Sequence record: OQ870555.1
Reading direction: 5' to 3' (one strand)
DNA length: 64,000 bases
Source: Escherichia phage PECP14
The stretch's first letter is position 1, and every line of letters starts with the position of its first letter. The position numbers and the translations under genes are program-made. Below are positions 28,377-55,520 of the stretch, in pieces. Below the pieces are notes generated by a model. The model was not told the origin of the DNA, made no database searches, and worked only from the letters and a program-made list of their open reading frames with translations.

Positions 28377-28992
28377 AACAATACTCCTATGTTGGTTATT
28401 CGGATATCTTTCTTTAGGACTATTCAAAAGAATAGAACAACTATTACTACCATTTACACAAACATTAATCATCATCAAGCAGTATGAATAAGTTATCATA
28501 CCTCAGTGCTGCGCTCTCTTAACTCTTATCCAGATCAGAACCTAGGTCATTGGCCGCTAAGCCGATTCTGATTGCCCTCACTATCCTATTGGTAGGTGGC
28601 TACTGGACGTGTCACCATTCGCTGCTCTTTTCGTTCGCACCCCCATATAAAGCTCTGCCTATATAACGAGCTAAATATGCACGGTTTGGATTTACCTTTC
28701 CGAATTCAGGGTACGCAGATCACTTAATTGATAATTAACTAATGCAGTATAAACACTAGTAATAGTTAAAACAACCCTTAATGGGGCAGCCTAACTGTTC
28801 CGTATTGCGGATTGTAAACAAGAAAAATTAGCAAAATCAATTTTTACTAATGTCTCTCAATTCAATATAAATATTATATCAAGATTTTGAGCATCCTGCA
28901 AGTAAAATTTTTCCGAAGGTGCTATCAGTGTCTTTGAGCACAGAGAAAACCGAGTCAAAACGACTCGGTAATCAGGATTGAGCTAATGAAAA

Positions 28993-46744: not shown

Positions 46745-47193
46745 TGGAAGAGAATATTCTAGATGTTTTGCGTAGGGCTTTGCAGGAATCTAAGGTTGAT
46801 GGTTCTGATAAAGAAGTAGCTAAAAGCTACCAGACCATAATCGGAGATCTTCAGCGTGTTGATAAAGACTTCATTACTTCTGAACAGTTTGTATCTTATC
46901 TAAAAGCTCAACTGAAAAGCATTAATCAGACGAAAGCTAAACTTCACGGTCAAGACCTTGATAATTATAGCTTGCAGTCTGCTCAGTATGAATATATACT
47001 GAACAAATGGTTACAACAGTATCTGCCGCCTCAGCTTTCTGATTCTGAGATTCGCAAATACTTTGCAGAATTAGTTAAGTTGAACCCTGGGATTACGAAG
47101 GGTATGCTGATGAAAGCGATTAAGGAAGAATTCCCTGGTCGTTATGATGGTGGTATTGCTGCTCAAGTTGCTGGCGAATTCAATAAAAATTGA
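46744..47193 (+). CDS. GatB/YqeY-domain protein
   Basis: 149 aa; ...NKWLQQYLPPQLSDSEIRKYFAELVKLNPGITKGMLMKAIKEEFPGRYDGGIAAQVAGE... matches the YqeY pattern (yLPqqLs.eE...GRaDG). Confidence 0.6.
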   Translation: MEENILDVLRRALQESKVDGSDKEVAKSYQTIIGDLQRVDKDFITSEQFVSYLKAQLKSINQTKAKLHGQDLDNYSLQSAQYEYILNKWLQQYLPPQLSDSEIRKYFAELVKLNPGITKGMLMKAIKEEFPGRYDGGIAAQVAGEFNKN

Positions 47194-47194
47194 T

Positions 47195-47223
47195 TTGCTA
47201 AACGCTTCAAAATTCTGTATAAT
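47195..47223 (+). promoter_or_regulatory. early promoter module directing transcription into the ORF-free segment
   Basis: TTGCTA-17 nt-TATAAT; the -35 overlaps the YqeY-like stop codon. Confidence 0.65.
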
Positions 47224-48057
47224 AGATTCATAAATTAGAGAACAGCGAGCCGATTACGCTGAGTGAGTTTAGTGATTCCTAATAGGATAGCTATTCCACT
47301 GAATAGAGTCGGTGAGTTGGAGACTAGTAAGTACTCTGAGAGAGGCTACGAGCTAACGCTTATTGCTATTGATAGGGAACTGAAAATCTGCGGAAAACTC
47401 GGGAGCTGTCCCGAAATCTCGTAAACTCTTCTCTAGTTTATGTTAGTGGGGTGTCGAACTGACTTATGTGATAACACTGCCAGATGCTCACAGGCTGACA
47501 TTGAGCTTTACTGCTCCTTCTGGAAAGAATCGGATAACTCGGGCTTATACCGGATAAGCATTCGCTGCTGGAGTACATACTATGACGGTTCAGGAGGTAC
47601 GCCACCTGATCAGTATTAGGTTAGAATCGAAACAGCTAAACCACGAGGAAACCTGACGGCCTCAACCAAACTCGGAACTCGGGATCACTGCCTAGTGTGT
47701 ACCCCGTTTAACCTGAGACTAGGCATCCAGCTTCGCATCGAAAATCGGAGGTGCGATTCTAACAGACCGCGTAACTATGAGAGTGGGAAACGCTGACATG
47801 AGAGATGTCACTAATGGTGCCCAATAGTACAGGTAATTCGCGATAATTCCTGTTGAGCGGCAGCAGTAGGCTGGGAGTCATGACCTAAGCCTAACCGAGT
47901 TCTTCACATACGGAGAACATAACCACAAAGTCACCCTGACTTAAACTGGAAGATATTGTCTGACGGAAGGGCTGCAGAGCTTAATCTGAGGGGGCTGACC
48001 CTACCTACCGTCGGGTATCTTTAAGAGCTTTTATAAGAGTTCTTAAAAATACCTAAA
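47224..48057 (+). ncRNA. candidate large structured non-coding RNA (ORF-free, promoter-driven, ends at tRNA-Arg)
   Basis: No ORF of 60 aa or more in any frame between 47194 and 48158; visibly more G+C-rich than flanking DNA; recurring AACTCGG(G) motif and several short hairpins. Identity unknown. Confidence 0.4.
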
Positions 48058-48132
48058 CGGGGTGTAGTCTAAGGGATAGGCAGGAGTCTTCTAAATTCCT
48101 TTATGCAGGTTCGAATCCTGTCACCTCGGCCA
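48058..48132 (+). tRNA. tRNA-Arg (anticodon UCU)
   Basis: Hand-folded: acceptor CGGGGTG/CACCTCG, anticodon arm GGAGT-CTTCTAA-ATTCC, T-arm GCAGG-TTCGAAT-CCTGT, encoded CCA. Confidence 0.75.
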
Positions 48133-48158
48133 ATTTTATTAACTGCTAGGAAAATAAA

Positions 48159-48359
48159 GTGAAAACACGATATATAGTAAAAGTAGTAGGTGAACATTCA
48201 CAAGTAAATACCACCGATGTTACAGCGCTAGCATTTGAAGTAGTCTCCGGTATAGTCATATTTCATAACGGAGATATCAAAGCTCCTGAATTTGCTGTGG
48301 ATGCTAGCCTGTTTATTTCTGCAACTAAAGTAACTGTAGTAGCTAACTCTTCTAAATAA
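48159..48359 (+). CDS. hypothetical small beta-rich protein upstream of the SPFH gene (GTG start)
   Basis: 66 aa ORF ending 11 nt before the SPFH gene. Confidence 0.45.
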   Translation: MKTRYIVKVVGEHSQVNTTDVTALAFEVVSGIVIFHNGDIKAPEFAVDASLFISATKVTVVANSSK

Positions 48360-55445: not shown

Positions 55446-55520
55446 GCACCTTTAGCTGAGATGGATTAGCGCTTGCCTGAAGAGCTTGAGAGGTTGGATC
55501 GTTACCAACGGGGTGCACCA
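55446..55520 (+). tRNA. tRNA-Phe-like (anticodon GAA) with atypical stems
   Basis: Acceptor GCACCTT/GGGGTGC, D-stem GCTG/TAGC, loop CTGAAGA, unusual T-loop ATCGTTA, CCA; anticodon stem has two mismatches. Confidence 0.45.

What the first reader, a model, noticed from the sequence alone, without database searches (positions are those of the whole stretch)
47194..48158. ORF-free, G+C-shifted 0.83-kb segment under a strong early promoter, ending at tRNA-Arg: candidate large structured RNA
The supplied six-frame track has no ORF of 60 aa or more anywhere in 47194-48158, in a genome that otherwise carries a gene every 0.2-0.5 kb. A canonical promoter (TTGCTA-17-TATAAT, 47195-47223) fires into it, and it ends at an intact tRNA-Arg(UCU) at 48058-48132. 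By eye it is more G+C-rich than the AT-rich flanks and contains a recurring AACTCGG(G) motif (near 47396, 47536, 47668/47678) and short hairpins such as CGGGAGCTGTCCCG. I saw no group I/II intron hallmarks. Large ornate RNAs (GOLLD/ROOL-type) are known to sit next to tRNA genes in phages; any relation here is inference.
Basis: partly seen in the sequence, partly recalled or inferred. Interest (0 to 1): 0.75.

Follow-up and report, generated by a model that had tools for sequence, protein, structure and literature searches.

The report
Large structured phage RNA (RNAX homologue)
This gene-free 0.83-kb stretch of a T5-like Salmonella phage encodes a large, intricately folded non-coding RNA, the counterpart of phage T5's long-annotated but never-characterised 'RNAX'. 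Its self-complementary loops suggest it may stick to copies of itself, as the giant phage RNAs GOLLD and ROOL do.

Summary
47194-48158 is the longest stretch in the window without an ORF of 60 aa or more. It is G+C-enriched, starts at a conserved TTGCTA-17-TATAAT promoter and ends at tRNA-Arg(UCU).

The interval is homologous to the misc_RNA 'rnaX / RNAX, stable RNA with unknown functions' annotated in the GenBank records of T5, Salmonella phage 5, DT57C and DT571/2. I found no paper describing it, and it matches no Rfam family.

Homologues (0.64-1.3 kb) occur in Tequintavirus, Epseptimavirus, Klebsiella and Pectobacterium T5-like phages. They show conserved islands separated by swappable helices. 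Compensatory base-pair changes are well above controls, folding is strand-specific, and there is no codon periodicity. It is therefore a real, modular, structured ncRNA, probably released from a tRNA-Arg co-transcript by RNase P and capped by a 19-bp 3' hairpin.

Most relatives embed a tRNA-like module; this window replaces it with a plain hairpin.

One apical loop carries a different palindrome in each lineage, and a second loop carries a nearly invariant UCAUGA. This is the signature used to argue for intermolecular kissing in OLE and GOLLD. Self-assembly and function remain inferences. The RNA is dispensable in the laboratory: the T5 st0 deletion removes it.

The parts
47195..47223 (+). Sigma-70 early promoter TTGCTA-17-TATAAT, the homologue of T5 'promoter P 16-17'
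   Evidence: Consensus scan gives 10 of 12 matches. The block is conserved in all lineages including Pectobacterium phages. It is annotated as promoter P16-17 in T5 AY543070 and phage 5 AJ604531.
47230..48057 (+). RNAX-family non-coding RNA, about 0.82 kb. The 5' end at about 47230 is inferred; the end equivalent to the T5 annotation is 47237. The 3' end is the base before tRNA-Arg.
   Evidence: Homology to annotated rnaX. MFE -259.6 kcal/mol, z = -5.33 on + against -0.65 on -. No 3-nt periodicity. Covariation.
47232..47439 (+). 5' domain closed by helix P0 (47232-47242 pairs with 47429-47439, 11 bp). It contains hairpin CAGCG/CGCUG (47243-47261), the conserved motif UGAAUAGAGUCGGUG, and hairpin CGGGA/UCCCG (47400-47413).
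   Evidence: 10 of 11 P0 pairs appear in the unconstrained MFE. TrudiGerster has a matched GA/UC insertion on both strands, Pectobacterium phages have AAAGAA/UUCUUU, and some Tequintaviruses have a G.U wobble. T5 and DT57C lack the whole domain and keep only a P0 hairpin.
47444..47928 (+). Core domain closed by long-range helix P1 (47444-47449 UAGUGG pairs with 47923-47928 CCACAA; A47445.A47927 is a mismatch in this phage)
   Evidence: Predicted by RNAalifold on 16 cores. The variable position is A-U in Tequintavirus, U-A in SB13 and G.U in DT57C. Pectobacterium phages have UUACGG/CCGUGA. Klebsiella phages extend the helix to 9 bp, AAAUAGUGG/CCACUAUUU.
47450..47479 (+). Nearly invariant block GGUGUCGAACUGACUUAUGUGAUAACACUG
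   Evidence: Conserved from E. coli to Pectobacterium phages. Its role is unknown.
47480..47523 (+). Lineage-specific hairpin (CCAGA/UCUGG closing GCUCA/UGAGC) occupying the site where most relatives carry a 72-nt tRNA-like module
   Evidence: Alignment with Stitch, T5 and others. The pairs are checked. The tRNA-like module of relatives passes the Rfam tRNA threshold (29.3-39 bits). Nothing tRNA-like is found here even at E<=10.
47543..47559 (+). Hairpin GCUUAU-ACCGG-AUAAGC after the conserved motif GGAUAACU
   Evidence: Present in the MFE, 6 of 6 pairs. T5 has GCUUUU/AAAAGC, Klebsiella GCUUC/GAAGC or GGUUC/GAACC, all compensatory.
47794..47810 (+). Hairpin P_x (UGACAU/AUGUCA)
   Evidence: 3 of 6 pairs change on both sides, and 98.5% of cells are paired. 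RNAalifold predicts it independently.
47815..47862 (+). Helix P_y (47815-47823 with 47854-47862) enclosing hairpin P_z (47829-47833 with 47849-47853). The 15-nt P_z loop presents the palindrome UCGCGA (47838-47843).
   Evidence: P_y is 100% paired, with G-C to G.U changes. The P_z loop palindrome differs by lineage: UCGCGA, CGCGCG, CUCGAG, UCCGCGGA, GUGCGCAC, ACAUGU.
47868..47892 (+). Hairpin P_w, whose 8-nt loop AGUCAUGA (47876-47883) contains the palindrome UCAUGA
   Evidence: Two stem pairs change on both sides within the E and T types. The Klebsiella stem GUGAC/GUCAC is entirely different. The loop is identical in every lineage except My1.
47899..47918 (+). Variable hairpin P_v (GUUCUUC/GGAGAAC)
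   Evidence: Two pairs change on both sides. It is replaced by CAGC/GCUG in SB13 and by a GAAA-capped mini-hairpin in Klebsiella phages.
47928..47952 (+). Hairpin Ha (AAGUCA-CCC-UGACUU) followed by the conserved single strand UAAACUGGAA
   Evidence: 98.6% paired, with an A-U to U-A flip at the closing pair. The motif is exact enough to retrieve all relatives.
47962..48012 (+). Three-way junction. Stem Hb is 47962-47970 with 48004-48012. Hairpin Hc is 47971-47980. The junction strand UUAAU is conserved. Hairpin Hd is 47989-48002.
   Evidence: Pairs that change on both sides: 3 of 8 in Hb, 2 of 3 in Hc and 2 of 4 in Hd. The MFE of several lineages gives the same shape.
48013..48054 (+). 19-bp terminal hairpin He, 3 nt before tRNA-Arg. 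It is a probable protector of the 3' end and is not an intrinsic terminator (no U tract).
   Evidence: 96.4% paired. One position is U-A in 12 sequences, C-G in 6 and unpaired in 5; the C.A mismatch in this window is among the unpaired. No + strand terminator is found. Mobile ORFs insert just after it in relatives.
48058..48132 (+). tRNA-Arg(UCU). Its 5' end defines the annotated 3' end of RNAX.
   Evidence: ARAGORN and Rfam at 49.3 bits. The same arrangement is annotated in T5, phage 5 and DT57C.

Best explanation
This is the Epseptimavirus homologue of phage T5 'RNAX', a gene for a large (about 0.82 kb), stable, highly structured non-coding RNA.

Shown here:
- It is non-coding.
- It folds on the + strand into a modular architecture: a 5' domain closed by helix P0, a core closed by long-range helix P1, hairpin Ha, a three-way junction and a 19-bp terminal hairpin.
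- The helices are maintained by compensatory changes across Tequintavirus, Epseptimavirus, Klebsiella and Pectobacterium T5-like phages.
- Whole modules, including an embedded tRNA-like element that this phage has lost, are gained and lost at helix tips.

Inferred:
- The conserved early promoter makes an RNAX-tRNA-Arg co-transcript.
- RNase P cleavage at the tRNA 5' end releases RNAX.
- The terminal hairpin then shields the RNAX 3' end from exonucleases, which would explain why it was annotated as a 'stable RNA'.

Most likely mode of action (inference, about 0.3-0.35): it acts in trans as an RNA-only particle that associates with copies of itself through two palindromic apical loops (UCGCGA at 47838-47843 and UCAUGA at 47878-47883), as OLE, GOLLD and ROOL do. 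It would serve an accessory, host-dependent role within the dispensable tRNA-rich 'anti-defence island' of T5-like phages.
For: Identity:
- Same synteny as T5: YqeY-like ORF, promoter, RNA, tRNA-Arg(UCU), SPFH gene.
- 83-84% identity over the 3' 376 nt to DT57C rnaX.
- Covariance models R1 and R2, built from close relatives, hit T5, DT57C and phage 5 at E of 1e-10 to 1e-48.

Structure:
- 3' domain, 23 distinct sequences: 94.3% of cells paired against 35-49% with the partner slid; 10 pairs changed on both sides against 0-4; covariation score 0.230 against at most 0.078 (slid) and 0.113 (shuffled); 0 of 500 shuffles reach it.
- Central domain on a plain MAFFT alignment: 93.1% against 39-46%; 7 pairs against 0-2; score 0.203 against at most 0.049; 0 of 500 shuffles.
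- RNAalifold independently recovers four of the five central helices.
- P0 and P1 show compensatory substitutions and a matched two-strand insertion.
- Many G.U pairs, for example 21 of 23 sequences at two He positions, would be C.A on the other strand.
- MFE z = -5.33 on + against -0.65 on -.

Non-coding:
- Substitutions are evenly spread over the three phases (p = 0.30-0.99 in 9 comparisons) and most indels are not multiples of 3.
- The flanking CDS gives p of 1e-5 to 1e-9 in the same test.

Processing:
- The RNA abuts the tRNA in T5, phage 5 and DT57C.
- No + strand terminator is present.

Self-association:
- The P_z loop carries UCGCGA, CGCGCG, CUCGAG, UCCGCGGA, GUCGCGCAC-type GUGCGCAC or ACAUGU in different lineages, flanked by unpaired A's.
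- The P_w loop UCAUGA is the same in all lineages but one.
- Kretsch et al. used palindrome-to-palindrome switching as evidence for intermolecular kissing in OLE and GOLLD.

Accessory role:
- The T5 st0 deletion mutant lacks the locus.
- The region is a known deletion hotspot and anti-defence island.
Against: - No transcript data were available here. 'Stable RNA' rests on a GenBank annotation with no paper that I could find.
- The sequences come from only about 6-8 independent lineages, so counts of covarying cells overstate the number of independent events.
- The 3' domain alignment was fitted to the model.
- Several core helices and motifs never vary, so they carry no evidence either way.
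- The topology of the two GUGG/CCAC pairings is not fully settled.
- Per-loop shuffle probabilities for the palindromes are modest: 0.29, 0.16, 0.07, 0.025, 0.007 and 0.085.
- TrudiGerster, L020 and DU_PP_V keep only 4-nt palindromes.
- The window itself has mismatches in P1 (A.A) and He (C.A).
- Dispensability in the laboratory, loss of the 5' domain in T5 and DT57C, and loss of the tRNA-like module here show that much of the molecule is not essential.
Confidence: 0.8

Rival explanations
1. It is a cis-acting leader. The structured RNA would exist only as the 5' part of the tRNA-Arg/SPFH operon transcript. It would control maturation or yield of tRNA-Arg or translation of downstream genes, and would have no trans function.
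For: It is transcribed from the same promoter as tRNA-Arg and the downstream ORFs, with no terminator in between. In Klebsiella phages two small CDSs, not the tRNA, follow it directly.
Against: - 0.6-1.3 kb of covarying structure with invariant loops is far more than any known leader.
- Annotators recorded it as a separate stable RNA.
- Its downstream neighbour changes (tRNA, homing-endonuclease ORF, small CDSs) while the RNA stays conserved.
Confidence: 0.1
2. It is a graveyard: decayed tRNA genes and scars of homing-endonuclease traffic in the tRNA region, with no function of its own.
For: Relatives contain a degenerate tRNA-like element with inconsistent anticodons. HNH and T5orf172 genes insert at the borders. 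The region is mosaic and deletable.
Against: - Non-tRNA parts are conserved between subfamilies, with compensatory changes and invariant loops.
- Folding is strand-specific.
- The promoter is conserved.
Confidence: 0.04
3. It encodes one or more small proteins, for example the 53-aa and 59-aa ORFs at 47263-47424 and 47440-47619.
For: Such ORFs exist, and automated pipelines annotate small 'hypothetical proteins' here in several phages.
Against: - There is no codon-position bias in substitutions, and indels shift the frame. A 25-nt indel against Stitch lies inside the 59-aa ORF.
- The positive-control CDS shows strong bias.
- The annotated ORFs differ in position and strand between genomes.
Confidence: 0.02
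4. It is a divergent member of GOLLD or ROOL.
For: It is a phage RNA next to tRNA genes and is at least 0.8 kb. It has a conserved 3' part and a variable 5' part, and a tRNA-like element inside it, features described for GOLLD.
Against: There is no hit to any Rfam family other than tRNA, at the gathering threshold or at E<=10, in the window or in eight relatives.
Confidence: 0.03
5. It is a DNA-level element, such as a replication origin, nick site or protein-binding palindromes, rather than an RNA.
For: It contains several DNA palindromes (UCGCGA, UCAUGA, the long He inverted repeat). The He arms are conserved beyond what pairing requires.
Against: - Helices rely on G.U pairs that would be C.A on the other strand.
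- The folding z-score is strand-specific.
- Covariation preserves pairing rather than sequence.
Confidence: 0.02

Closest known systems
Phage T5 RNAX (misc_RNA 'rnaX, stable RNA with unknown functions' in GenBank AY543070, AJ604531, KM979354, KM979355)
   Same: It has the same locus, promoter (P16-17), strand and 3' boundary at tRNA-Arg(UCU). The 3' half is homologous at about 83% identity, and it shares helices P1, P_x, P_y, P_z, P_w, P_v, Ha, Hb-Hd and He.
   Different: The window's RNA is about 820 nt, against 719 (T5), 636 (DT57C) and 785 (phage 5). It keeps the 5' domain that T5 and DT57C lack. It lacks the embedded tRNA-like module and T5's duplicated Ha. Its middle third is of the Epseptimavirus/Klebsiella type and barely aligns with T5.
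GOLLD RNA (Rfam RF01998) and ROOL RNA (Rfam RF03087), large ornate phage and prophage RNAs that form RNA-only nanocages
   Same: All are encoded by phages beside tRNA genes, are large, and have many helices around conserved junctions. GOLLD has a variable 5' part and a conserved 3' part, and sometimes a tRNA inside it. Symmetric kissing loops with palindromes occur in these RNAs, and the function is unknown.
   Different: There is no covariance-model similarity. The hosts are Enterobacteria rather than Lactobacillales, rumen or lake organisms, and the carrier is a virulent siphovirus. Multimerisation here is only inferred from sequence.
Phage T4 stable RNAs species 1 and 2 (rnaC, rnaD) in the T4 tRNA cluster (from my own knowledge)
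   Same: They are phage-encoded stable RNAs of unknown function, co-transcribed with tRNAs and released by the tRNA-processing machinery. They are dispensable in the laboratory.
   Different: The T4 RNAs are about 120-140 nt and partly tRNA-like. RNAX is 5-10 times larger and has an elaborate non-tRNA core.
HIV-1 dimerisation initiation site, DIS (from my own knowledge)
   Same: It is an apical loop presenting a 6-nt GC-rich palindrome flanked by unpaired purines, whose sequence varies between lineages (GCGCGC or GUGCAC) while remaining self-complementary.
   Different: The molecule and its biology are unrelated. It is cited only as the mechanistic model for a self-kissing loop.

Membership tests
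T5 RNAX (GenBank-annotated stable RNA) | Position between the T5.081-type (YqeY-like) ORF and tRNA-Arg(UCU), on the same strand | tested here: met
   ORF 46744-47193 matches Pfam YqeY at E = 1.7e-5 (25.3 bits, just under the 27-bit cutoff). tRNA-Arg is at 48058. T5, DT57C and phage 5 have the same order.
T5 RNAX (GenBank-annotated stable RNA) | Driven by the promoter annotated as P16-17 | tested here: met
   The block 47184-47241 is 91% identical to the T5 and DT57C promoter block. The hexamers are TTGCTA-17-TATAAT.
T5 RNAX (GenBank-annotated stable RNA) | Sequence and structure homology to the annotated RNA | tested here: met
   blastn gives 82.5% over 389 nt to DT57C. R1 hits DT57C at 62.5 bits and R2 at 184.7 bits. 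R1 hits T5 at 52.3 bits and R2 at 142.7 bits.
T5 RNAX (GenBank-annotated stable RNA) | Accumulates as a stable RNA in infected cells | not testable with these tools
   This rests only on the GenBank notes. No paper was found.
GOLLD (RF01998) | Match to the Rfam covariance model at the gathering score | tested here: not met
   No hit at the gathering threshold or at E<=10 on 47100-48250. None in eight relatives at E<=1.
GOLLD (RF01998) | Phage-encoded, adjacent to tRNA genes, over 800 nt, variable 5' and conserved 3' halves | tested here: met
   These are resemblances of kind and are not diagnostic.
ROOL (RF03087) | Match to the Rfam covariance model at the gathering score | tested here: not met
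GOLLD/ROOL/OLE-type RNA-only homo-oligomers | Forms a defined multimer without protein | not testable with these tools
   Only indirect evidence exists: palindromic apical loops that switch between palindromes across lineages, which is the criterion used.
tRNA / tmRNA | Cloverleaf or tmRNA detected within 47194-48057 | tested here: not met
   ARAGORN and Rfam find only tRNA-Arg at 48058. Relatives do carry an internal tRNA-like module at 29.3-39 bits.
Group I / group II introns, RNase P RNA, 6S, Y RNA and other Rfam families | Any covariance-model match | tested here: not met

The most novel reading that the evidence does not exclude
RNAX is a previously undescribed family of large, modular phage RNAs that self-assemble into an RNA-only dimer or higher-order particle. 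Assembly would use two self-complementary apical loops: one switches between palindromes across lineages and the other is a nearly invariant UCAUGA. RNAX would then be a functional analogue of GOLLD and ROOL in the genetically tractable T5 / E. coli-Salmonella system. It sits in the phage's anti-defence and tRNA island and in most members carries an embedded tRNA-like domain.
Probability: 0.3. Interest if true: 0.85.

Novelty: new member of a known kind. Interest (0 to 1): 0.66.

Why it matters
GOLLD and ROOL show that phages make giant RNA-only assemblies beside their tRNA genes, yet nobody knows what these assemblies do. Their hosts are also hard to manipulate.

RNAX is carried by the classic model phage T5 and by several hundred sequenced relatives (562 phage records match at blastn sensitivity) that infect E. 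coli, Salmonella, Klebsiella and Pectobacterium. Natural variants already exist: deletion of the whole locus, loss of the 5' domain, and loss or presence of the tRNA-like module.

If RNAX is the same kind of molecule, the open question 'what are large ornate phage RNAs for?' becomes testable. The tools would be ordinary phage genetics, defence-system libraries and cryo-EM.

Even on the conservative reading there are practical gains. RNAX is a well-supported structured-RNA family that is missing from Rfam, and annotation pipelines currently fill the interval with spurious small ORFs.

Tried and rejected
- Rfam scans at the gathering threshold and at E<=10 on the window and on eight relatives returned only tRNA. 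GOLLD, ROOL, intron, RNase P and tmRNA membership are rejected.
- Literature searches for RNAX, T5 stable RNAs, and T5 with ncRNA, ornate or nanocage terms found no description of this RNA. The apparent leads (retron Eco2, DRT9, Rad/anti-retron) concern other loci in the same region.
- IMG/VR scans by DNA motif and by the upstream protein returned only the same isolate genomes.
- tblastn with the endolysin was not specific enough to reach more distant Demerecviridae.
- The metagenome scan added only Tequintavirus- and Klebsiella-type copies, plus one odd contig, L085.
- mafft-qinsi was not usable.
- Plain MAFFT put the Tequintavirus 3' domain out of register, so a covariance model was used to realign it.
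- R2 could not reliably align the 5' half of the central domain of the Klebsiella and SB13 types, so A6 was not used for counts.
- The first set of P0 and hairpin coordinates was off by one or more bases (one for P0 and the hairpin's 5' arm, four for its 3' arm) and was corrected.
- RNAalifold's alternative to P_z (CAAUAG/CCUGUUG) was rejected. G-to-U changes in T5 and L041 break it, whereas ACAGG/CCUGU stays intact.
- The MFE pairing CAGA/UCUG was rejected in favour of Hc on comparative grounds.
Full report
**The observation**

The window is a T5-like Salmonella phage of the genus Epseptimavirus, 99.7% identical over the interval to phage vB_SabS_Sds2.

- No ORF of 60 aa or more lies in 47194-48158; the longest is 59 aa. 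This 965-nt gap is the longest in the whole 64-kb window, the next being 493 nt.
- The promoter TTGCTA-17-TATAAT sits at 47195-47223.
- tRNA-Arg(UCU) sits at 48058-48132.
- G+C is 0.467 against a window mean of 0.406, within the top 2.4% of equal-sized windows.
- AACTCGG occurs four times on the + strand within 47396-47682, and once as its complement at 47895. That is 5 of the 9 matches in the window, where 4.9 are expected for the full 64 kb.

**The locus already has a name**

The homologous interval is annotated as misc_RNA 'rnaX / RNAX, stable RNA with unknown functions' in four GenBank records.

| Phage | Record | RNAX length | Note |
|---|---|---|---|
| DT57C | KM979354 | 636 nt | abuts tRNA-Arg |
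| DT571/2 | KM979355 | not recorded | |
| T5 | AY543070 | 719 nt | 'promoter P 16-17' |
| Salmonella phage 5 | AJ604531 | 785 nt | same promoter |

Other T5-group records leave the interval blank, call a pseudo-tRNA or 'tRNA-Sec', or fill it with small hypothetical ORFs that differ in place and strand. I found no paper on RNAX in the searchable library. No Rfam family other than tRNA matches the window or eight relatives, even at permissive thresholds.

**Distribution and anatomy**

blastn finds matches in 562 phage records. I compared 40 distinct full-length copies from:

- Tequintavirus and Epseptimavirus;
- Yersinia phage phiR2-01;
- Klebsiella T5-like phages, where the RNA is about 1.3 kb and directly follows the endolysin;
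- Pectobacterium phages My1 and DU_PP_V, of subfamily Mccorquodalevirinae.

All share the promoter and a set of short, nearly invariant islands: CAGCG..CGCUG, UGAAUAGAGUCGGUG, UAAACUCUUCU, GGGGUGUCGAA..ACACUGCC, GGAUAACU, CUAAACCAC, UCGGAGGUG, AAGUGGGAAA, GGAGUCAUGACC, AUAACCAC, AGUCACCYUGACU-UAAACUGGAA, GCUUAAU and the long terminal inverted repeat. Between the islands lie stems whose sequence and length change, and lineage-specific hairpin insertions. This pattern is typical of a real structured RNA.

**The window's RNA domain by domain** (coordinates checked)

- Helix P0 (47232-47242 with 47429-47439) closes a 5' domain.
- Long-range helix P1 (47444-47449 with 47923-47928) closes the core.
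- The core contains an invariant block, a lineage-specific hairpin (47480-47523), hairpin 47543-47559, a poorly resolved middle third, and then P_x, P_y/P_z, P_w and P_v.
- After the core come hairpin Ha with the single strand UAAACUGGAA, a three-way junction (Hb, Hc, Hd), and the 19-bp hairpin He, which ends 3 nt before the tRNA.

**Evidence for structure**

The + strand folds far better than shuffled versions (-259.6 kcal/mol, z = -5.33, 0 of 20 shuffles). The - strand does not (z = -0.65).

| Measure | 3' domain | Central domain |
|---|---|---|
| Alignment | 23 distinct sequences realigned with covariance model R1 | plain MAFFT alignment of 11 sequences |
| Cells forming a standard pair | 94.3% | 93.1% |
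| Same, with the 3' partner slid | 35-49% | 39-46% |
| Pairs changed on both sides | 10 | 7 |
| Same, slid | 0-4 | 0-2 |
| Covariation score | 0.230 | 0.203 |
| Score, slid | at most 0.078 | at most 0.049 |
| Score, shuffled | 0.113 | 0.117 |
| Shuffles reaching the observed score | 0 of 500 | 0 of 500 |

- RNAalifold independently predicts P_x, P_y, P_w and P_v.
- P1 has A-U in Tequintavirus, U-A in SB13 and G.U in DT57C. It is UUACGG/CCGUGA in Pectobacterium phages and extends to 9 bp in Klebsiella phages.
- P0 shows a matched GA/UC insertion in TrudiGerster and AAAGAA/UUCUUU in Pectobacterium phages.
- Many pairs are G.U, so they would be C.A mismatches on the opposite strand. This points to RNA rather than DNA.

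There are caveats. The sequences represent about 6-8 independent lineages. One alignment is model-fitted. Several helices never vary. The two GUGG and two CCAC motifs allow either a nested or a tandem topology; the Klebsiella and SB13 data favour nested.

**Not protein-coding**

In nine pairwise comparisons, substitutions are spread evenly over the three phases (p = 0.30-0.99) and most indels are not multiples of three. The adjacent YqeY-like CDS gives p of 1e-5 to 1e-9 in the same test. A 25-nt indel relative to Stitch lies inside the 59-aa ORF.

**Modularity**

- T5 and DT57C lack the entire 5' domain, so P0 collapses to a simple hairpin.
- Many lineages carry an extra 200-260-nt module between P0 and P1.
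- T5 duplicates Ha.
- Most relatives carry a 72-nt tRNA-like module at the tip of a core helix. It passes the Rfam tRNA threshold (Hildy 39 bits, Pectobacterium 38.3, Stitch 29.3) but has inconsistent anticodons: ACU, CGA, UAG.
- In this window that module is replaced by a 44-nt hairpin that keeps only the two closing C-G pairs.
- Homing-endonuclease genes (HNH_3, T5orf172) are inserted at the borders in some relatives.

**How it probably works**

The steps shown here are that it is a non-coding, conserved, structured + strand RNA gene with its own conserved promoter, abutting tRNA-Arg.

The inferred steps are as follows. The promoter fires at about 47230, which is needed for P0 to form. The primary transcript continues into tRNA-Arg, since there is no terminator. 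RNase P cutting at the tRNA 5' end then creates the RNAX 3' end, which the 19-bp hairpin He protects. This would account for the 'stable RNA' annotation.

**Function**

Function is unknown. The locus lies at the edge of the tRNA-rich region that is deleted in the T5 st0 mutant. That region is a deletion hotspot and has been called an anti-defence island. An accessory, host-dependent role is therefore likely.

The most specific lead concerns two apical loops.

- The P_z hairpin presents, in a large A-rich loop, a palindrome that differs between lineages:
  - UCGCGA in this window and in most Tequintaviruses and Epseptimaviruses;
  - CGCGCG in T5;
  - CUCGAG in SB13 and YZU-L1;
  - UCCGCGGA in Klebsiella phages;
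  - GUGCGCAC in phiR2-01;
  - ACAUGU in My1.
- Only CGCG or AUAU remains in three lineages.
- The P_w loop AGUCAUGA carries the same palindrome, UCAUGA, in every lineage except My1.

Adjacent self-complementary bases cannot pair within one loop. Kretsch et al. used exactly this palindrome-to-palindrome switching as evidence for intermolecular kissing loops in OLE and GOLLD. They also note that GOLLD has a variable 5' half, a conserved 3' half, tRNAs in its linker, and a position beside tRNA genes.

Per-loop shuffle probabilities are modest (0.29 to 0.007). I therefore rate self-association at about 0.3.

**Comparison with known families and verdict**

The element is a member of the (GenBank-only) RNAX family. 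All testable criteria are met.

It is not a member of GOLLD, ROOL or any other Rfam family, because the covariance-model criterion was tested and not met. It does belong to the same kind: a large, ornate, phage-encoded RNA beside tRNA genes, of unknown function. I file it as a new member of a known kind. The locus itself was flagged two decades ago but never characterised.

Interest is moderately high because the family sits in a classic, tractable model phage and offers natural deletion and module-swap variants.

Noticed in passing
L085 (metagenome contig Ga0315885_101303), 1-1565; motifs at 867-889, 1266-1277 and 1467-1479: This is an ORF-poor 1.5-kb contig (longest ORF 73 aa, G+C 0.51, no tRNA, no Rfam hit). 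It shares three motifs with RNAX: the exact 23-mer AGTCACCTTGACTATAACTGGAA, GGGAAGTCATGA, and GCGCGATAAACTC (compare the T5 P_z loop). The motifs are in a different order, and models R1 and R2 do not hit. It may be a distant relative or a chance match; about 0.1 chance hits are expected for the 23-mer.
   Followed up: partly
window 55446-55517: Rfam tRNA matches at 33.4 bits, above the gathering score, but ARAGORN does not call a tRNA here. This may be one of the T5-type 'tRNA-like stable RNAs' of the tRNA region.
   Followed up: no
L003 1537-2016 and 2603-3112; L005 2117-2626; L043 2538-3083: Mobile-endonuclease-type ORFs sit at the borders of RNAX in relatives. An HNH_3 gene replaces the 5' domain in CRW-SP5. 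A T5orf172/MUG113 gene lies between the terminal hairpin and tRNA-Arg in My1. A 169-aa ORF with no Pfam hit lies at the same junction in TrudiRoth (L005); CRW-SP5 has an ORF of the same length at that junction that was not itself scanned. The hairpin-tRNA junction looks like an insertion hotspot.
   Followed up: partly
L002 (T5) about 2320-2430; L076 7364-7473: T5 and one metagenome contig carry a tandem duplication of hairpin Ha plus UAAACUGGAA, separated by a spacer of about 64 nt.
   Followed up: no
L006 about 1450-1700; L009, L010, L011, L020, L027 and L047 at the equivalent place: An extra 200-260-nt structured-looking module lies between helices P0 and P1 in TrudiGerster, phiR2-01, Klebsiella phages, SB13 and others. 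It is absent from this window and from Tequintavirus. It has no Rfam hit.
   Followed up: no
window 47184-47241 compared with L001 925-978 and 3486-3544, and L002 259-311 and 1099-1152: The promoter block of about 55 nt (A/T-rich upstream part, both hexamers and the initial transcribed CAUAAAUU) recurs at 75-85% identity in front of other early genes of T5-like phages. This fits a shared family of strong early promoters.
   Followed up: no
window 28500-28992: This is the second-longest stretch (493 nt) without an ORF of 60 aa or more on either strand. It was not examined.
   Followed up: no
window 47640-47643 and 47784-47787: A second CCAC/GUGG pair inside the core could form a 4-bp helix nested within P1. 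In Pectobacterium phages all four motifs change together, to CCGU/ACGG. Covariation alone therefore cannot separate the nested from the tandem topology.
   Followed up: partly
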